Part shown: piece by piece, positions 1,038 through 15,323 of the stretch
How the letters are laid out: the number at the start of each line of letters is the position of its first letter
How positions within the stretch are numbered: position 1 is the stretch's first letter
The notes under the pieces: generated by a model
The model's input: the letters and a program-made list of their open reading frames with translations, nothing else
Database searches by the model: none
Told to the model about the DNA's origin: nothing
Origin: a virus
Taxonomy: Duplodnaviria; Heunggongvirae; Uroviricota; Caudoviricetes
Virus record (IMG/VR): IMGVR_UViG_3300033405_000002
Location: 179,595 to 243,594 of that record
Direction: 5' to 3' (one strand)
Length of the DNA: 64,000 nucleotides
Translations under genes and position numbers: made by a program

Positions 1038-3428
1038 ATGGATAACGCAACCAAAACCGCGTATGTTTCGCCCCCGAACGGGCAGCTTGACATCACAATC
1101 ATCAGGGATGCGAACCCGCGTGTGACTATTCTGATCGACCTTGGAATTCCCAATTTTACTGTGTTTTCTATGACCTTGCCACTCGCGGAAGGACAGCCGG
1201 GGGCTATGTCCCAGCTTATCGCTGAGGCGGTGCATGTGCTGCTCGACGAAGTGGCTTCGTTCATGATGAGCATGGAGTTTGACGAGAAAGTTATCGTCAA
1301 TATTTACGCTACAGTGCTCGCCACATTCAAGAGCATGAGCACGGAGTCTGACTCAGCCAAAGAGCAGGATGTGTCCGGTCAAGACCCAACAGTCGCTACC
1401 TACGAAGGCACGTTTGAGATTCCGATGGACTTCATCAACGAGACTCAGAAGCGTGTTGTGACCGCCGCTGAGATTACCGAGAAAGAGGCCGAGAGACTCA
1501 TCCGCATGGCTCGTAAGCTGAACGATGATCCAAAGCGCACTGAGCTTTACGAGAAGGCGAAGAGTAGCTGGAGCCGAGAAGAATCCAAAACAGCGCACGA
1601 CTATCAGTGGGCCCCGATTAAGCGTATCTGGGATGCACTTGCAGAATACGTTTCAATCGAACAACCTTTGGGGTTTGACAAAGACGTAGACCAGTTCATC
1701 CGCGAGAAGCTTCAGCACATCGACAAGAGTATGCGTCAAGTGGAGAAAGTGATCTCAACTGGCTCTGATGAATTCTATCCCATGGCGATTGCCATAGAAT
1801 CAACGATCATAAGCGACATGCTTTGGGTAGCCAGAGCGCTTCACTCGCAGGCACACGTGCGCGAGCAATTGGGTGAGAACGCGTGGCGCACCATGCGGCA
1901 GGCTGACTATGAGCTAAAGGACGCGGAGAAAGCTTTGAAGCAAGCTGTCAGGCTGGGTAATGACCCTAAGCGCAGCGAGATTGTTGGAAAAGCCCGCGAG
2001 ACAAAGAGCGAAAAAGATATAAAGGCGGCGCACGAGTACCAGTATCCGCTCATGCAAAAGTTGTACAACACTCTTCTCGATCTTGTGGGCCGTGAACAAG
2101 AGATTGAGTTCGGCGGTGTCGGCAGCGATGAAAAGCAGTACGATTTCATCATTCGTGGCAAGATGAAGTGGTTGGCGTCTGCCTTTGACGACATTGATGA
2201 CATGGTGCAGGGCAAGTTCGTCGCGTTGAAACCATCGGAATATTACAGTGAATACCTGATGTCCACGGAAGAAAACATGCTGAACGAATTGAGCAATGTT
2301 GCTAATGCTCTGAGAGTTCAAGCCCTTCCCACACCTAGTTGGCAGCGAGTTGAAGCCGCGACCAAAATTCAGCGAACTCCCAAGGTCCGTCACGTTGAAC
2401 TGACGTACTCCCCGAAAGAAAAGACTAAACCGAGTGACACCGCACGCGTGATTCGCATGTATCGCAACCGCACGCTGAAGCAACAACCTCGCCCGATGTT
2501 CGTTGTCGTGTACGATCAGGCGGGCCGTCCCGCTGGCGCGGTTCAGGTTGGCCCCGGCAAGAATTTCAAGAATGAACTGTTGCGTCAAATGAAGAAAAAG
2601 GGCAGCATTGATTTTACCGAGCCTGTCAGCTTCGTGAATGAGCAAGAGATGAAGTCGAATCAGCTAAACGGTATCCCGCGTGCCATCAGCGTCGGCGGCA
2701 TGACGTACCAGCCGGAGGCGATGAGTGGCGTGGACATGGCTCTGTACCACGGCCCACAGGACTACATCGTGAAGTTCCCCGATGGTCGCTCAGCTATTTT
2801 CCCCGGACGCCCGACGTTCAGCAAGATGCGCGTGCTCAATTTCCCTGTTCCTCGCAATCGTTTCCGTTGGACGACGATCCCGGAAGATGCTCTCGCAGAG
2901 CCGAAGGACAAGCCGCAAGAGGTCAAGGAAGCCGGGGATGATGATGCTCCACGCAGCGCTGAGCAAGTTAAAAACGATGAAGCACGCAGCATGACCATGC
3001 CCCCTGACGATCACTACAAGCCAAAAGACACGGTTCGCCCGGACATGGTGCATCATCGCAGTGGTGGTGAGAATAAGTTTCGCGGTGTAGAGCAGATTTG
3101 GCTCAAGCCGACGCGCACTTACGACGATCTTGTCCCATTGGATCAATTGAAGAAGCGTCTCGAACGTGACAAACTCAGCGGTCGGCAGATTTTCAGCGGC
3201 TTGATGCTGATCGACAGAATTGGATACTACGGCACCTTCGAGGGCAAGAACGTGCTCGTTATCCCGCAGTATTACATCCGGCGCTACGGTGTGAAGAAGG
3301 ACGATGGCACTTGGCAGGTTTATCACTTGCGGTCTGACGGCCGTGCGCAGAAGATTGGTTTCCGCACGATTACGGACAACGATTTCACCGAAGCAAAGCC
3401 AGCGGAGAGTATTGAACAGCATGGCTGA
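1038..3428 (+). CDS. hypothetical 796-aa protein with an internal duplicated ~50-aa segment
   Basis: long ORF; repeats 'NDDPKRTELYEKAKSSWSREESKTAHDYQW' and 'GNDPKRSEIVGKARETKSEKDIKAAHEYQY'; TAA-TAG-ATG junction with the upstream gene. Confidence 0.6.
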   Translation: MDNATKTAYVSPPNGQLDITIIRDANPRVTILIDLGIPNFTVFSMTLPLAEGQPGAMSQLIAEAVHVLLDEVASFMMSMEFDEKVIVNIYATVLATFKSMSTESDSAKEQDVSGQDPTVATYEGTFEIPMDFINETQKRVVTAAEITEKEAERLIRMARKLNDDPKRTELYEKAKSSWSREESKTAHDYQWAPIKRIWDALAEYVSIEQPLGFDKDVDQFIREKLQHIDKSMRQVEKVISTGSDEFYPMAIAIESTIISDMLWVARALHSQAHVREQLGENAWRTMRQADYELKDAEKALKQAVRLGNDPKRSEIVGKARETKSEKDIKAAHEYQYPLMQKLYNTLLDLVGREQEIEFGGVGSDEKQYDFIIRGKMKWLASAFDDIDDMVQGKFVALKPSEYYSEYLMSTEENMLNELSNVANALRVQALPTPSWQRVEAATKIQRTPKVRHVELTYSPKEKTKPSDTARVIRMYRNRTLKQQPRPMFVVVYDQAGRPAGAVQVGPGKNFKNELLRQMKKKGSIDFTEPVSFVNEQEMKSNQLNGIPRAISVGGMTYQPEAMSGVDMALYHGPQDYIVKFPDGRSAIFPGRPTFSKMRVLNFPVPRNRFRWTTIPEDALAEPKDKPQEVKEAGDDDAPRSAEQVKNDEARSMTMPPDDHYKPKDTVRPDMVHHRSGGENKFRGVEQIWLKPTRTYDDLVPLDQLKKRLERDKLSGRQIFSGLMLIDRIGYYGTFEGKNVLVIPQYYIRRYGVKKDDGTWQVYHLRSDGRAQKIGFRTITDNDFTEAKPAESIEQHG

Positions 3429-7941: not shown

Positions 7942-7984
7942 GTAGAAGAAGATTGATGGTCGTGCGTTTTACAGAAGACCGTAA

Positions 7985-8248
7985 GACAATAGGCACCAGA
8001 CACGTTATCGGACGCGGGTTCGACTCCCGCCGCCTCCACCATAAAGATTTGGTGGTACTCCCACAGCAGGGCTTATGGGGGCGTCACGGCTTCGACGGTG
8101 AATGATGCGAGGATAGCGCCAACGACCCGATGATCGGTTCCCAGCGTTAATAGGGGGCAAAAAACAGTAAACGCCAACGCTCCAAAGGCAATGGCTGCTC
8201 ATGCTTAATGAGCCTGACCCGGTGGGTCAGTTCCTCAACACCACAAAA
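7985..8248 (+). ncRNA. ssrA: tmRNA (ssrA), circularly permuted two-piece type. The acceptor piece ends with ...GGACGCGGGTTCGACTCCCGCCGCCTCCACCA at 8041. The coding piece starts with GGGGGCG at 8077
   Basis: 3' T-arm and acceptor nearly identical to E. coli ssrA; coding-piece 5' GGGGGCGTCACGGCTTCGACGG resembles the tmRNA 5' end; the 5' strand GGGGGCG pairs with the 3' strand CGCCTCC and gives a G3:U70 pair; candidate tag ORF GCC AAC GCT CCA AAG GCA ATG GCT GCT CAT GCT TAA TGA at 8173-8211; helix-5-like hairpin follows. Confidence 0.75.
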
Positions 8249-8250
8249 GA

Positions 8251-8273
8251 ACCCGCGCAAGCGGGCTTTTTTG
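8251..8273 (+). terminator. rho-independent terminator after the tmRNA
   Basis: CCCGCGCAAGCGGGC hairpin followed by a T6 run. Confidence 0.7.
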
Positions 8274-8292
8274 TTTGTGGTAGAATCCTGTT

Positions 8293-8490
8293 ATGAACAC
8301 CACACTTGGTCCTTGGCTGCGCGGCGATTATCTCGACGCGGGCATTCTCGCGCTTCTCATCATCTGGTTTACTCTTGACCGTCTCAATTGCTATTTCTTC
8401 GATCTGTGGCAGGTGTTCCGCCGCTGGCTTTACATCCTAAACATTTTCACTTCGCGCCCGTGGGACGAGAATGGCAGGAGACCGCTGTAG
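8293..8490 (+). CDS. small hydrophobic protein
   Basis: 65-aa ORF; ends with TAG, which overlaps the GTG of the next gene. Confidence 0.4.
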   Translation: MNTTLGPWLRGDYLDAGILALLIIWFTLDRLNCYFFDLWQVFRRWLYILNIFTSRPWDENGRRPL

Positions 8491-11794: not shown

Positions 11795-11954
11795 GCGCGG
11801 GTAGCTCAGTGGGAAGTTGGAAGACGGGTTGATCTCCGTTACGACAGCTTCATGAGCGCCATCGGTGAGACAGGGGGAATGAGAGGGACGCTTCTTTGGA
11901 AGCCTGTCAATAAACGTGAAAGCAAGGGTGGTTCGATTCCATCCCCGCGCACCA
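11795..11954 (+). tRNA. tRNA-like gene, aberrant at 160 nt. It has canonical acceptor 5' and D-stem 5' ends (GCGCGGGTAGCTCAG) and a canonical T-arm, acceptor 3' strand and CCA, but about 90 nt are inserted between them
   Basis: acceptor GCGCGGG pairs with CCCGCGC; T-loop TTCGATT; paralog of the tRNA-like gene at 12432; no canonical D-stem 3' or anticodon arm identified. Confidence 0.35.
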
Positions 11955-11955
11955 A

Positions 11956-12033: not shown

Positions 12034-12155
12034 TGCAGGATAAAGGCTCAGGCGAAGATAGGTCGCACTTATCAGACCAAAAGCTGAAGTTGGCAACACG
12101 GCGCTTGCCCTCATCGTGAGATGAGAAACCGGGTTCGACTCCCGGCCCTGCACCA
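12034..12155 (+). tRNA. tRNA-like gene, long at about 120 nt. It has a T-arm and acceptor with a hairpin variable arm (CTCATCGTGAGATGAG), but no canonical D-arm or anticodon arm
   Basis: T-arm CCGGG-TTCGACT-CCCGG; 5' TGCAGGA pairs with 3' CCCTGCA; candidate anticodon hairpin has an 8-nt loop. Confidence 0.3.
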
Positions 12156-12289: not shown

Positions 12290-12344
12290 GTACCGCGCAA
12301 GTAATCCGCATTCGCCGGAGGTTCGATTCCTCAGGTGCCCACCA
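12290..12344 (+). tRNA. tRNA 3'-half-like element (T-arm, acceptor 3' strand and CCA); no convincing 5' half found
   Basis: GGAGG-TTCGATT-CCTCA then GGTGCCC-A-CCA. Confidence 0.25.
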
Positions 12345-12354
12345 AGTTTGTTGC

Positions 12355-12431: not shown

Positions 12432-12505
12432 ACGCGGGTAGCTCAGAGAAAGAGCATCCGGCGCAAGCTGGAAGGTCGGTGGTTTAATTCCATCCCCGCG
12501 TGCCA
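12432..12505 (+). tRNA. tRNA-like gene in which the anticodon arm is replaced by a 6-bp hairpin capped by a GCAA (GNRA) tetraloop
   Basis: acceptor ACGCGGG/CCCGCGT; D-arm GCTC-AGAGAAA-GAGC; T-loop TTTAATT; TCCGGC-GCAA-GCTGGA. Confidence 0.4.
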
Positions 12506-12607: not shown

Positions 12608-12684
12608 GCGCCCGTAACGCTTAGCGGCTAAAGCTGTGGTCTCTAAAACCGTGATCGGGGGTTCGAGTCCCTCCGGGCGCACCA
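12608..12684 (+). tRNA. tRNA with anticodon CUA (amber suppressor type). It has two extra nt between the acceptor and the D-stem
   Basis: acceptor GCGCCCG/CGGGCGC; anticodon arm GTGGT-CTCTAAA-ACCGT with U33, CUA at 12643-12645 and A37; T-loop TTCGAGT; CCA encoded. Confidence 0.5.
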
Positions 12685-12713: not shown

Positions 12714-12817
12714 GCCCCGGTAGCTCAATAGCAGAGCAGCGGTCTCTAAAACCGTCCTCACTAGAGCAGCGGATGTTAATCCGTTGGTTACGGGTTCAAG
12801 TCCCGTCCGGGGTTCCA
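12714..12817 (+). tRNA. tRNA with anticodon CUA (amber suppressor type) and an about 34-nt variable arm
   Basis: canonical D-arm GCTC-AATAGCA-GAGC; anticodon arm GCGGT-CTCTAAA-ACCGT with CUA at 12746-12748; variable-arm hairpin CGGAT-GTTA-ATCCG; T-loop TTCAAGT; acceptor GCCCCGG/CCGGGGT. Confidence 0.55.
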
Positions 12818-12818
12818 C

Positions 12819-12893
12819 ACTCCTGTAGCTCAACGTGGCTAGAGCGCGGTCCCTAAAATCGCAGATGCGAGTTCGATGCTCGCCGGGAGTGCC
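12819..12893 (+). tRNA. tRNA with anticodon CUA (amber suppressor type, C33 variant)
   Basis: acceptor ACTCCTG/CGGGAGT; D-arm GCTC-AACGTGGCTA-GAGC; anticodon arm GCGGT-CCCTAAA-ATCGC with CUA at 12853-12855; T-arm GCGAG-TTCGATG-CTCGC; CCA. Confidence 0.5.
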
Positions 12894-12897
12894 AACG

Positions 12898-14365: not shown

Positions 14366-14403
14366 TTTCTGGTATCATACATAGAACATCCAAGGAGGAT
14401 GCC

Positions 14404-15323
14404 ATGTCACAGCGGGACGCTTAAATGAGACTTTACGCCGTCATTTTGACGGGTATGGTCTCCCTTTCTCTTTTTCAACCAACGTAATCCCCGAAAACGA
14501 TCCAACCACTCTCTTCATTAGCGCGGGGATGCAACCACTCAAACCAAGGTTTCAGACGCCGGACGGCACAGGCTACGGCAATGTGCAGTATTGTGTGCGC
14601 ACGAACGACATTGACGAAGTGGGCGATGGCACGCATCTGACTTTCTTCCAGATGATCGGCAGCTTCGGCTTTGGCACCTACAACTACGAGAGCCACGTGC
14701 AGATGTGGTCGGACATCATGACCGACCTGAAGATTCCTATTGACCACGTGGACGTTCACCCAGACTCCCAGCTAGATTATCTGTGGCTTCAGCGCGGCTA
14801 CGGCGTGCGCATGAACCCGGAGTGTGTTTGGTCGGACGGCAATGTCGGCGGTTATTGCTGCGAACTATTCACGCCGGACGGACTCGAAGTAGGCAATCTG
14901 GTGAACCCATTGCAGCACTCCGTGGACGTAGGATTCGGCTACGAACGAATCTTGCAGATCATGGAGGGCAAATCTCGCGTGGATGAGACGAGCCTTTTCA
15001 ACCAGTTTCTCGATCCGATTTCTCGCGACCATTTTCGCACGCTCAACGTGTTTCATGAGCAAGGGATTGTTCCGGGGAACAAAGGGCGGAATTACGTCTG
15101 CCGCCGCCTGATTCGCCGCTTTATCCGGTTGAATCCAAACGGTTTAGAGTGTTCGTTCATGGATTGGATGGATGATGAACGAATCCGCATGGAGAATTCG
15201 ATCCGCGACGGGCGCAAGCATTGGCGCAGGAATAAACGCAAACTCCCACCAATACCGAACTCGTTCTATTGGGAGACTTTCGGCATCATGCCCGATGAGA
15301 TGGTATTAGTGAAAGAGGAATAG
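14404..15323 (+). CDS. alanyl-tRNA synthetase catalytic-domain fragment (mini-AlaRS). It is split into an SD-ATG leader MSQRDA-TAA (14404-14424) and a -1 frame (14385-15323); it needs a -1 frameshift, or it is a pseudogene or carries a sequencing indel
   Basis: frame-0 region 'ENDPTTLFISAGM...QYCVR...THLTFFQMIGSFGFGTYNYESH...VDVGFGYERILQI...GNKGRNYVCRRLIRRFIRL' matches the E. coli AlaRS motifs HNDPTLLFTNAGM, QRCVR, HHTFFEMLGNFSFGDYFK, IDTGMGLERI and GRGYVLRRIIRRA; AlaRS-like homology extends 48 codons upstream of the first ATG (14529) with no start codon in that frame; the AAGGAGGA RBS serves ATG 14404 in the +1 frame; ends with TAG. Confidence 0.6.

What the first reader, a model, noticed from the sequence alone, without database searches (positions are those of the whole stretch)
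14385..15323. Mini-AlaRS: an alanyl-tRNA synthetase catalytic core whose N-terminus is reachable only by a -1 frameshift from a short SD-ATG leader
The ORF at 14529-15323 carries the AlaRS class-II catalytic motifs QYCVR, THLTFFQMIGSFGFGTYNYE, VDVGFGYERILQI and GNKGRNYVCRRLIRRFIRL. AlaRS-like homology (..LRRHFDGYGLPFSFSTNVIPENDPTTLFISAGM, compared with E. coli IRQAFLDFFHSKGH..VPHNDPTLLFTNAGM) continues 48 codons upstream of the first ATG, in a frame with no start codon back to a TAG at 14382. A strong RBS (AAGGAGGA) serves ATG 14404 in the +1 frame, which encodes MSQRDA then TAA. Slipping -1 at GCU-UAA-A gives MSQRDALNETLRRHF..., which recreates an AlaRS-like N-terminus of the form MS..... The result is a phage-borne AlaRS catalytic fragment of about 306 aa that lacks the tRNA-body recognition, editing and C-Ala domains. 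Its expression may be controlled by frameshifting at a stop codon, in the style of prfB. AlaRS is the enzyme that charges tmRNA, and a two-piece tmRNA with a G3:U70 pair lies 6 kb upstream.
Basis: partly seen in the sequence, partly recalled or inferred. Interest (0 to 1): 0.8.

Follow-up and report, generated by a model that had tools for sequence, protein, structure and literature searches.

The report
Frameshift-gated phage mini alanyl-tRNA synthetase
A huge phage carries a stripped-down alanyl-tRNA synthetase gene that can only be made if the ribosome slips back one base at an alanine codon six codons into a tiny leader, and the same device is conserved in dozens of very different phages, which suggests (untested) a built-in sensor of alanine-tRNA supply.

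Summary
Frame 0 is open from 14385 to 15323, encodes an AlaRS catalytic core (Pfam PF01411, E=4e-30; AlphaFold pLDDT 92.7; best fold matches are AlaRS catalytic fragments), and has no ATG, GTG or TTG before 14529. The only ribosome-binding site serves ATG 14404 in the +1 frame (MSQRDA-TAA).

It is not an assembly error. 76 distinct leader sequences from viral, metagenome and MAG contigs (31-76% protein identity) show the same layout.

In 47 non-redundant leaders the motif is G-C-N-X | X-Y-Z | G-C-N:
- The Ala codon is invariant, with a free third base.
- The base before the preceding codon equals that codon's first base in 46/47.
- A hairpin usually starts about 5 nt after the Ala codon, with compensatory changes.

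A stop directly after the Ala codon is not conserved (44/76), so this is not prfB-like.

Best reading: a programmed -1 frameshift in which peptidyl-tRNA slips on X XYZ while the Ala codon waits in the A site. Synthesis of this editing-less AlaRS would then rise when Ala-tRNA(Ala) runs short. The recoding is near-certain. The sensing mechanism is inferred. I found no prior description.

The parts
14367..14378 (+). Conserved upstream motif TTCTGGTATCAT (possible extended -10, TGnTATCAT) just 5' of the ribosome-binding site
   Evidence: Shared with relatives L001, L074, L072 and L087. Not called by the simple sigma-70 scan. Its role as a promoter is inferred only.
14392..14399 (+). Shine-Dalgarno AAGGAGGA serving ATG 14404
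   Evidence: Read directly. GGAGGA(T) precedes the leader ATG in most of the 47 non-redundant leaders.
14404..14424 (+). Leader ORF in frame +1: ATG TCA CAG CGG GAC GCT TAA (MSQRDA-stop)
   Evidence: Leaders of the form M-x-x-x-[D/N/K/L/Q/S/E]-A occur in 76 distinct relatives. Ala is the 6th codon in 40 of 47 non-redundant leaders.
14412..14421 (+). Shift motif G C G G | GAC | GCT (general form G-C-N-X | X-Y-Z | G-C-N). Proposed P-site codon GAC 14416-14418 preceded by G 14415. A-site Ala codon 14419-14421. The -1 frame reads GCG GGA CGC.
   Evidence: G0 and C+1 47/47, C-6 47/47, G-7 41/47, base -4 equals base -3 in 46/47 (binomial p about 1e-24). Frame-0 stops at -10..-8 in five relatives confine the shift to -7..+2.
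14422..14426 (+). 5-nt spacer (TAAAT) between the Ala codon and the hairpin. It contains the leader stop TAA.
   Evidence: Among strongly structured relatives the first paired base is at offset 4-6 in 25 of 36, and in 14 of 21 of the non-redundant ones.
14427..14462 (+). Downstream stem-loop GAGACU-U-UAC-G-CCGUCA-UUU-UGACGG-GUA-U-GGUCUC, inside the coding sequence for the N-terminal helix
   Evidence: RNAfold gives -19.9 kcal/mol, z=-5.0, and the hairpin appears in the 96-nt fold. On the alignment of 17 relatives: 95% of cells paired, 5 pairs with compensatory changes, covariation 0.236 against 0.128 in shuffles (0/500), slid controls 32-46% paired.
14418..15323 (+). Frame-0 coding sequence of the mini-AlaRS (from CGC 14418 if the slip is on GAC, from TTA 14421 if after the Ala codon) to TAG 15321-15323. 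The product is about 306 aa including the leader residues.
   Evidence: Pfam PF01411. PDB sequence and fold matches to AlaRS catalytic fragments. AlphaFold pLDDT 92.7. Codon-position divergence.
14529..14531 (+). First in-frame ATG (the Met of the conserved AGM motif). It is not the real start. Gene callers start here or later.
   Evidence: 43 of the 120 listed database homologues cover 85-86% of the query at 252-265 aa because they were called from this Met. P0001, the window's own gene, was called at 246 aa.

Best explanation
The gene encodes a phage mini alanyl-tRNA synthetase. It has the catalytic core plus a much shortened tRNA-recognition region, and no editing or C-Ala domain. It is expressed only through a conserved programmed -1 ribosomal frameshift very early in translation.

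Ribosomes start at SD-ATG 14404 in the +1 frame and read four more codons. With GAC (14416-18) in the P site and the Ala codon GCU (14419-21) in the A site, the stem-loop that begins 5 nt downstream sits at the mRNA entrance, which is the geometry of classical -1 sites. The peptidyl-tRNA can slip back one base (G GAC to GGA) because the preceding base repeats the codon's first base. tRNA-Ala cannot re-pair in the -1 frame. The slip is therefore most likely to happen while the A site is still empty and waiting for Ala-tRNA(Ala).

After the slip the ribosome reads CGC, UUA, AAU and so on, giving MSQRD-R-LNETL... Without the slip it makes the hexapeptide MSQRDA and terminates.

Because the frequency of the slip should rise when Ala-tRNA(Ala) is scarce, the leader would act as a sensor that switches on AlaRS synthesis when charging is insufficient. 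It would also keep an editing-less, potentially error-prone enzyme off otherwise.

Shown: the anatomy, its conservation, the covariation and the AlaRS fold. Inferred: which tRNA slips, the dependence on Ala-tRNA supply, and the enzyme's substrates.
For: 1. Frame geometry and lack of any frame-0 start.

2. Frame 0 is under protein-level selection from right after the Ala codon. The start codon of plain-start homologues aligns exactly with the shift site.

3. 76 distinct leaders from IMG/VR, JGI/ENA metagenomes and GTDB MAG contigs, at 31-76% protein identity and with very different GC content, share SD-ATG(+1)-short leader-Ala.

4. In 47 non-redundant leaders the Ala codon is invariant with a free third base. 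The base before the P-site codon equals its first base in 46/47, using all four nucleotides: G GAC, A AAC, A AAA, C CUA, C CAA, U UUA, U UCG and others (p about 1e-24).

5. The downstream structure is stronger than in plain-start homologues: mean z -1.99 against -0.64, Mann-Whitney p=0.002 on non-redundant sets. It starts about 5 nt after the Ala codon and covaries (also L105 against L111).

6. Precedents. Single P-site tRNA slippage at slow ('hungry') A-site codons is reviewed in PMC5009743. Ala codons (GCA) are known -1 shift sites when tRNA balance is perturbed (PMC6920855).

7. No Rfam family covers the leader, and searches of the paper library found no description of it.
Against: - There is no experimental evidence of frameshifting, of its efficiency, or of its response to Ala-tRNA levels.
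- Re-pairing of the P-site tRNA in the -1 frame is only partial: the first base always pairs, the second often only as G-U or a mismatch.
- The invariant C-6 and near-invariant G-7 are not explained by simple P-site slippage.
- About half of the leaders lack a statistically strong hairpin.
- One leader (L079, C AAA GCA) breaks the X=X rule.
- Ala-tRNA is normally abundant, so 'hungry' conditions are hypothetical.
- A constitutive low-level shift would explain the same anatomy, except for the choice of Ala.
Confidence: 0.55

Rival explanations
1. The shift happens after the Ala codon has been decoded. Either peptidyl-tRNA-Ala with a stop or slow codon in the A site moves so that the third base of GCN is re-read, or it hops back 7 nt from GCN (14419-21) to the frame-0 GCN at 14412-14, giving MSQRDA-GR-LNETL.
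For: - A stop follows the Ala codon in 44 of 76 leaders and T at +3 in 33 of 47.
- G-7 (41/47) and C-6 (47/47) with a free -5 look like a second tRNA-Ala pairing site exactly 7 nt (equivalent to -1) upstream.
- Frame-0 stops at -10..-8 in L095, L100, L107, L131 and L086 leave -7 as the earliest landing point.
- Backward steps and hops are known at low level (PMC5009743).
Against: - tRNA-Ala cannot re-pair on ZGC for a -1 slip.
- The stop is absent in 42% of leaders.
- A hop does not explain the X=X covariation (46/47).
- 6 of 47 leaders have CCG or UCG instead of GCN at -7.
- With Ala in the P site the hairpin would begin only 2 nt after the A-site codon, which is not the usual geometry.
Confidence: 0.2
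2. A constitutive, low-efficiency -1 frameshift that only sets a low fixed expression level of the enzyme, with no sensing of Ala-tRNA.
For: The same anatomy as the best explanation. Many viral frameshifts are fixed-ratio devices (PMC5009743).
Against: - It does not explain why the A-site codon is Ala in every one of 76 leaders of an AlaRS gene, when any codon would do.
- A weak SD or weak start codon would set low expression more simply.
- Relatives that lost the Ala codon also moved to an ordinary in-frame start (L003/L096).
Confidence: 0.15
3. A dedicated phage tRNA performs the shift by doublet decoding of GC. The candidate is the odd tRNA at 12432-12505, which has a 6-nt anticodon loop CGCAAG.
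For: ARAGORN calls a 2-base anticodon for this tRNA and Rfam confirms it is a tRNA (46 bits). Its loop contains GC.
Against: No tRNA with a 2-base anticodon was found in the flanks of 137 related loci, whereas the shifted leader is nearly universal. The closest relative L001 has none in the equivalent position. The idea explains neither X=X nor the hairpin. Flanks were only 2.5-3 kb, so absence elsewhere in those genomes is not excluded.
Confidence: 0.03
4. Artefact or decay: a 1-nt assembly error, a pseudogene, or a regulatory uORF followed by initiation at ATG 14529 or at a non-canonical codon.
For: Gene callers and NCBI annotation treat the gene as starting internally (P0099 = L148).
Against: - The same shifted layout occurs in 76 distinct leaders from independent assemblies.
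- Codon-position divergence shows frame-0 translation of the 111 nt upstream of ATG 14529.
- Those residues include invariant and near-invariant positions and are modelled with pLDDT 89-97.
- No ATG/GTG/TTG lies in frame 0 near the leader stop.
Confidence: 0.02

Closest known systems
prfB (release factor 2) autoregulatory +1 frameshift
   Same: A translation factor's own substrate codon sits in the A site of an early shift site. Plentiful factor activity leads to termination of a short leader product, and scarcity leads to a frameshift and full-length synthesis.
   Different: The direction is -1, not +1. The sensed codon is a sense codon (Ala, GCN), not UGA. There is no SD-like element 3 nt upstream. 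A downstream hairpin is present. The stop after the Ala codon is dispensable (44 of 76).
dnaX / IS-element / viral -1 programmed frameshifting (X XXY YYZ + spacer + structure)
   Same: A -1 shift, a spacer of about 5 nt, a downstream stem-loop with covariation, and an SD upstream.
   Different: No tandem-slippery heptamer. Only the P-site tRNA can re-pair (X XYZ) and the A-site tRNA-Ala cannot. The site lies at codon 5/6 of the ORF, and the zero-frame product is a 4-13 residue peptide (6 in most leaders).
'Hungry codon' single-tRNA frameshifting (Gallant and co-workers, reviewed in PMC5009743) and tRNA-balance-dependent -1 shifting at Ala GCA codons by tRNA-Ser3 in MS2 (PMC6920855)
   Same: A slow A-site codon plus P-site re-pairing gives -1 shifts. 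Ala codons compete with tRNAs that read NGC in the -1 frame. Here the -1 frame A-site codon is CGC, AGC, UGC or GGC.
   Different: Those are laboratory or error phenomena. Here the arrangement is conserved and is required to express a gene, and the gene is the synthetase for the sensed tRNA.
Leader-peptide attenuation of amino-acid and aaRS operons (for example pheST, his, trp)
   Same: A short leader ORF with cognate codons reads out charged-tRNA supply through ribosome pausing.
   Different: The read-out here would be a change of reading frame on the same mRNA, not transcription termination. A single cognate codon is used instead of a run.
Tupanvirus mini-AlaRS (TuAlaRS, 461 aa; PMC10036535)
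   Same: A virus-encoded AlaRS without editing and C-Ala domains. TuAlaRS charges tRNA-Ala and an acceptor-stem microhelix.
   Different: The phage protein is about 306 aa, with most of the tRNA-recognition domain deleted. It keeps PGN (aligned by HMMER, with the AlaRS PSN motif, which I recall holds E. coli N303) and a C-terminal WDTFG(I/L)P motif resembling YDTYGFP (which I recall holds D400). TuAlaRS lacks both residues. It belongs to bacteriophages, and no frameshift is reported for TuAlaRS.

Membership tests
Alanyl-tRNA synthetase, class II catalytic core (Pfam PF01411 tRNA-synt_2c) | Significant match to the family profile above the curated threshold | tested here: met
   105.2 bits against a cut-off of 30.3, E=4.2e-30. 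PDB profile search: E=6.6e-32 to AlaRS 9jdn, 7.5e-30 to 1riq.
Alanyl-tRNA synthetase, class II catalytic core (Pfam PF01411 tRNA-synt_2c) | AlaRS catalytic-fragment fold | tested here: met
   AlphaFold pLDDT 92.7, pTM 0.87. Foldseek top 27 hits are all AlaRS, E down to 8e-20, TM (query) 0.76-0.82.
Alanyl-tRNA synthetase, class II catalytic core (Pfam PF01411 tRNA-synt_2c) | Motif 2 Arg and motif 3 Asp of the Ala-AMP site | tested here: met
   cvRt..ND..vGD aligns with Aquifex clRv..ND..vG, and svDvGfGyER aligns with iDtGmGlER. R, D and E are invariant in the family. That these are the active-site residues rests on my knowledge of AlaRS.
Full-length bacterial AlaRS (NCBIfam TIGR00344 / NF002436 equivalog) | Whole-protein score above the equivalog cut-off; editing and C-Ala domains present | tested here: not met
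   105-113 bits against cut-offs of 457-529. The protein is 306 aa with only PF01411.
Functional AlaRS | Alanylation of G3:U70 acceptor stems (tRNA-Ala, tmRNA) | not testable with these tools
   Indirect only. PGN and WDTFG motifs resemble the regions I recall as holding N303 and D400 (the D400-region alignment is not significant on its own). tRNA-Ala genes are frequent direct neighbours.
Canonical -1 programmed ribosomal frameshift site | Tandem slippery heptamer X XXY YYZ | tested here: not met
   The site is X XYZ GCN. tRNA-Ala has no pairing on ZGC.
Canonical -1 programmed ribosomal frameshift site | Stimulatory structure 5-9 nt downstream, conserved with covariation | tested here: met
   Strong in about 45-50% of leaders and weak or undetected in the rest.
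Canonical -1 programmed ribosomal frameshift site | Demonstrated trans-frame product | not testable with these tools
   Needs a reporter assay or mass spectrometry.
prfB-type autoregulatory frameshift | +1 shift at an in-frame stop codon with an SD-like element about 3 nt upstream | tested here: not met
   The -1 geometry is shown. A stop directly after the shift codon occurs in only 44 of 76. No internal SD.
Hungry-codon single-tRNA -1 slippage | The P-site tRNA can re-pair in the -1 frame | tested here: met
   First-base identity X=X in 46 of 47, with four-nucleotide covariation. Second and third positions pair only partly.
Hungry-codon single-tRNA -1 slippage | Shift frequency rises when the A-site aminoacyl-tRNA is limiting | not testable with these tools
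   Inferred from the invariant Ala codon in an AlaRS gene.

The most novel reading that the evidence does not exclude
The leader is a natural ribosomal sensor of tRNA-Ala charging, and it reads the signal twice. An empty A site at the zero-frame GCN reports a lack of Ala-tRNA(Ala). After the -1 slip the E-site codon becomes the conserved frame-0 GCN (G-7, C-6), which could capture deacylated tRNA-Ala and lock in the new frame. Phages would use it to deploy an editing-less emergency AlaRS only when host alanylation fails, for example under host defence or shut-off. The same logic (a cognate codon at an early shift site) may gate other phage-encoded synthetases.
Probability: 0.3. Interest if true: 0.92.

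Novelty: new variant of a known kind. Interest (0 to 1): 0.82.

Why it matters
If confirmed, this would be, as far as I could find, the first aminoacyl-tRNA synthetase gene controlled by ribosomal frameshifting at its own cognate codon. It would also be the first case where 'hungry-codon' single-tRNA slippage, so far a laboratory phenomenon, is used as a conserved gene switch.

It defines a compact, portable element of about 60 nt (SD-ATG, 4 codons, X XYZ GCN, 5 nt, hairpin). That element can be tested directly as a reporter of Ala-tRNA charging.

It also corrects the annotation of a widespread phage protein family. Gene callers truncate it or extend it spuriously, and NCBI labels one member 'alanine--tRNA ligase-related protein'. 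The family is the smallest AlaRS-like enzyme so far seen in viruses. This raises the question of what it charges (phage tRNA-Ala, tmRNA) and how phages tolerate an AlaRS without editing.

Tried and rejected
- **Assembly error or pseudogene.** Rejected by conservation in independent assemblies and by codon-position divergence.
- **TAG read-through extending the ORF upstream** (the phage has three tRNA-CUA genes). Rejected. The upstream frame-0 sequence overlaps another ORF and is not conserved, relatives have other stops there, and the large ORFs of the window are intact under code 11.
- **Non-canonical frame-0 start or termination-reinitiation.** Rejected. The frame-0 codons near the leader stop are TTA, CTA, ATA, AAT or GCA, with no consistent start, and the SD is 21 nt away.
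- **Doublet-decoding phage tRNA.** No such tRNA in the flanks of relatives.
- **prfB-like stop dependence.** The stop is not conserved.
- **Transcriptional slippage.** No homopolymer run at the site.
- **Known RNA family.** No Rfam hit on 14385-14470, even at E<=1.
- **Promoter call for TGGTATCAT.** Not supported by the simple scan.
- **tmRNA linkage.** Only 2 of 151 loci have a tmRNA within about 3 kb.
- **Literature searches** for phage AlaRS, frameshift and synthetase autoregulation found nothing relevant beyond the Tupanvirus mini-AlaRS and general frameshifting reviews.
It was redone with the frame-0 translation.
Full report
**Observation.**
- Frame 0 is open from 14385, just after TAG 14382-84, to TAG 15321-23. 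It contains no ATG, GTG or TTG before ATG 14529.
- AAGGAGGA (14392-99) precedes ATG 14404 by four bases. That ATG is in the +1 frame and reads ATG TCA CAG CGG GAC GCT TAA (MSQRDA-stop).
- The frame-0 translation matches the AlaRS class II core (PF01411, 105 bits, E=4e-30). The match begins 19 codons upstream of ATG 14529.
- Alignment to the Aquifex AlaRS fragment pairs residue 14 of the joined product with Aquifex residue 15. The natural N-terminus therefore lies at the leader.

**What the protein is.**
- An AlphaFold model built on 43 homologues is confident (pLDDT 92.7, pTM 0.87), including the N-terminal helix and strand encoded upstream of ATG 14529.
- Its 27 best PDB fold matches are all AlaRS catalytic fragments (E down to 8e-20, TM 0.76-0.82).
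- It scores far below the NCBIfam alaS equivalog cut-offs and has no editing or C-Ala domain.
- The motif-2 Arg and motif-3 Asp/Glu are invariant in the family.
- The conserved PGN aligns with the AlaRS PSN motif, which I recall contains E. coli N303. A C-terminal FWWDTFG(I/L)P motif resembles YDTYGFP, which I recall contains D400. The window's protein has YWETFGIMP there, with E in place of D. PMC10036535 names N303 and D400 as the G3:U70 readers. This second correspondence is only suggestive, because the HMMER alignment of that stretch is not significant on its own.
- The family is therefore a drastically compacted AlaRS of about 300 aa. It is smaller than the 461-aa Tupanvirus mini-AlaRS (PMC10036535).

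**Context.**
- The window comes from a 278,485-bp ENA metagenome contig.
- Genes are almost all on one strand and include a tail sheath and a helicase.
- There are tRNA arrays on both sides of the gene and a permuted tmRNA at 7949-8299.
- The closest relatives are on IMG/VR viral contigs of up to 533 kb and on metagenome contigs of up to 859 kb.
- In GTDB genomes the family (45% identity or more) occurs only on MAG contigs from Acidobacteriaceae, Planctomycetota and Woesebacteria.

**It is not an error; it is conserved.**
- In the protein database, 43 of the 120 listed homologues cover 85-86% of the query at 252-265 aa, consistent with a call from the internal Met. Several others carry long, unrelated N-terminal extensions that share 'GGC[H/Y]VTAGR' or a close variant, which is the frame-0 translation of the SD and leader. 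That pointed to conservation at the nucleotide level.
- I fetched DNA for 57 viral, 80 metagenomic and 13 MAG loci.
- 76 distinct leaders (31-76% protein identity, AT-rich to GC-rich) have an SD-ATG in the +1 frame about 42 codons before the conserved AGM methionine. The ORF is short, of the form M-x-x-x-[D/N/K/L/Q/S/E]-A.
- A distant marine subfamily (31-36% identity) instead has a plain in-frame ATG 38-39 codons before that methionine. That is exactly where the shifted genes change frame.
- Across 17 close relatives, divergence in the 111 nt between the Ala codon and ATG 14529 is 0.18/0.10/0.37 at frame-0 codon positions 1/2/3. The same pattern holds in the first 45 nt. Frame 0 is therefore translated from immediately after the Ala codon.
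- Frame-0 stop codons at -10..-8 in five relatives confine the frame change to a 10-nt window, -7 to +2.

**Anatomy of the site.** I used 47 leaders clustered below 75% identity, numbering the G of the Ala codon as 0.
- G0 and C+1 are invariant, and the third base is free (GCC 31, GCA 27, GCU 14, GCG 4 among the 76).
- C-6 is invariant and G-7 is present in 41 of 47.
- The base at -4 equals the base at -3 in 46 of 47, with all four nucleotides used: G GAC, A AAC, A AAA, C CUA, C CAA, U UUA, C CUU, G GAA, U UCG and others. The chance expectation is 0.28 per sequence, giving p of about 1e-24.
- The motif is thus G-C-N-X | X-Y-Z | G-C-N.
- The codon after Ala is a stop in only 44 of 76. Otherwise the leader ends one to seven codons later.
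- Ala is the sixth codon in 40 of 47.

**Downstream structure.**
- In the window a stem-loop spans 14427-14462 (-19.9 kcal/mol, z=-5.0) and starts five bases after the Ala codon.
- Across non-redundant shifted leaders the 55 nt after the Ala codon fold better than shuffles (mean z -1.99, 45% below -2). The equivalent stretch of plain-start homologues gives mean z -0.64 (Mann-Whitney p=0.002).
- Among the well-folded ones the first paired base is at offset 4-6 in 14 of 21.
- In an ungapped alignment of 17 relatives, 95% of cells pair and five pairs show compensatory changes. For example, CGUCG/CGACG becomes CGGAA/UUCCG in L062, changing the encoded residues. Covariation exceeds all 500 shuffles, and slid controls pair only 32-46%.
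- L105 and L111 show a different 11-bp stem at the same place with a compensatory U-A to C-G change.
- About half of the leaders have no statistically strong hairpin, so the structure is frequent but perhaps not obligatory.

**Mechanism (inference).** The geometry is that of a -1 site: P-site codon XYZ, A-site codon GCN, a 5-nt spacer, then a hairpin. It is not a tandem-slippery heptamer, because tRNA-Ala has no pairing on ZGC. The X=X covariation says that the tRNA on XYZ must be able to re-pair one base back.

The simplest model is single-tRNA slippage while the A site is still empty. This is the 'hungry codon' pathway known from starvation experiments (reviewed in PMC5009743). It is related to the classical observation that Ala GCA codons are -1 shift sites when the tRNA balance is perturbed (PMC6920855).

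After the slip the A-site codon is CGC, AGC, UGC or GGC, and the product would be MSQRD-R-LNETL...

The A-site codon is Ala in every leader of an AlaRS gene. The most economical functional reading is therefore feedback: little Ala-tRNA(Ala) means a long pause, more slipping and more AlaRS. This resembles prfB in logic but not in mechanism. An editing-less AlaRS is potentially mutagenic to the proteome, which would reward keeping it off unless needed. That last point rests on my knowledge of AlaRS and is not tested here.

**What remains unexplained.** G-7 and C-6 are conserved as nucleotides. Leader residue 4 varies among R, Q, L, P and H, but its codon always starts with C, even in AT-rich phages. 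Three ideas fit:
- After the slip, the E-site codon is GCN and might bind deacylated tRNA-Ala.
- It is a landing codon for a -7 back-hop of peptidyl-tRNA-Ala.
- It forms a two-base-pair clamp with G0 and C+1 (RNAfold draws AGCG-GGA-CGCU).

Because GC is self-complementary, sequence alone cannot separate these.

**Rivals.**
- A constitutive shift without sensing keeps about 0.15.
- A dedicated doublet-decoding tRNA was prompted by the 6-nt-loop tRNA at 12432-12505. It is unsupported, because no such tRNA occurs near 137 relatives.
- Artefact, pseudogene, TAG read-through, non-AUG initiation and transcriptional slippage are rejected.

**Comparison and novelty.** No Rfam family matches the leader. 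Full-text searches found no report of a phage mini-AlaRS or of any synthetase gene controlled by frameshifting. The library is not exhaustive. I classify the finding as a new variant of a known kind: programmed, probably autoregulatory, ribosomal frameshifting. The site type is unusual (X XYZ + cognate sense codon) and so is the target (an aaRS).

**Confidence.**
- Conserved programmed -1 recoding is required for expression: about 0.9.
- The slip is on the pre-Ala tRNA: about 0.6.
- It senses Ala-tRNA supply: about 0.5.
- The combined statement: 0.55.

Noticed in passing
window 7949-8299: Permuted (two-piece) tmRNA gene with tag peptide ANAPKAMAAHA (ARAGORN). Rfam RF04321 tmRNA_permuted matches 7981-8208 at 69.6 bits. 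It is a possible substrate for the mini-AlaRS, but tmRNA is near the gene in only 2 of 151 related loci.
   Followed up: partly
window 12608-12684, 12714-12814, 12819-12894: Three tRNA genes with a CUA (amber-suppressor) anticodon. The middle one has an insert of about 27 nt after the anticodon arm and was found only by Rfam. Despite this, the large ORFs of the window are intact under the standard code, so any TAG recoding must concern genes elsewhere or be limited.
   Followed up: partly
window 12432-12505: A tRNA with a 6-nt anticodon loop (CGCAAG), an A1:U72 acceptor end and G73. ARAGORN reports a 2-base anticodon. Its identity and function are unknown.
   Followed up: partly
window about 11927-11955, 12128-12155, 12318-12345: Three orphan T-arm plus acceptor 3' ends (GGTTCGAnTCC...CACCA) that no tool calls as tRNA. 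They could be intron-containing, permuted or degenerate tRNA-like genes within the tRNA array.
   Followed up: no
window 14367-14378: TTCTGGTATCAT directly upstream of the SD is conserved in several close relatives and looks like an extended -10 element. The simple sigma-70 scan does not call it.
   Followed up: partly
L022, L039, L043/L044, L053, L133 (upstream of the match): tRNA-Ala genes, up to three isoacceptors, lie directly upstream of the mini-AlaRS gene in several relatives. tRNA-Ala is among the commonest tRNA genes in the flanks (23 of about 190). The window itself has no tRNA-Ala in its 64 kb.
   Followed up: partly
L003 / L096 (125-kb contig), about 2940-2975: A relative in which the Ala codon is replaced by ACA and an in-frame GTG sits at SD distance. 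The frameshift appears to have been converted into an ordinary start while remnants of the leader remain.
   Followed up: partly
L002 / L077 (436-kb contig), about 2990-3000: A 70%-identical relative in which the leader and the first 15 or so codons are replaced by unrelated sequence, with an ATG only 27 codons before the AGM methionine. This is possibly a truncated or inactivated copy.
   Followed up: no
L148 (= protein P0099, NCBI 'alanine--tRNA ligase-related protein', Planctomycetota MAG): The public annotation starts this homologue inside frame 0 at a non-ATG codon (its product begins MHRRF over ATC CAT CGG). This shows that pipelines cannot place the start. The locus has the leader MKSHLAQ with U UUA GCC.
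   Followed up: yes
L098 120-195, L107 553-628, L132 4455-4550: tRNA genes with 8-nt anticodon loops (4-base anticodons caat, ggat, gaag) lie next to mini-AlaRS genes in three relatives. They are possible quadruplet decoders.
   Followed up: no
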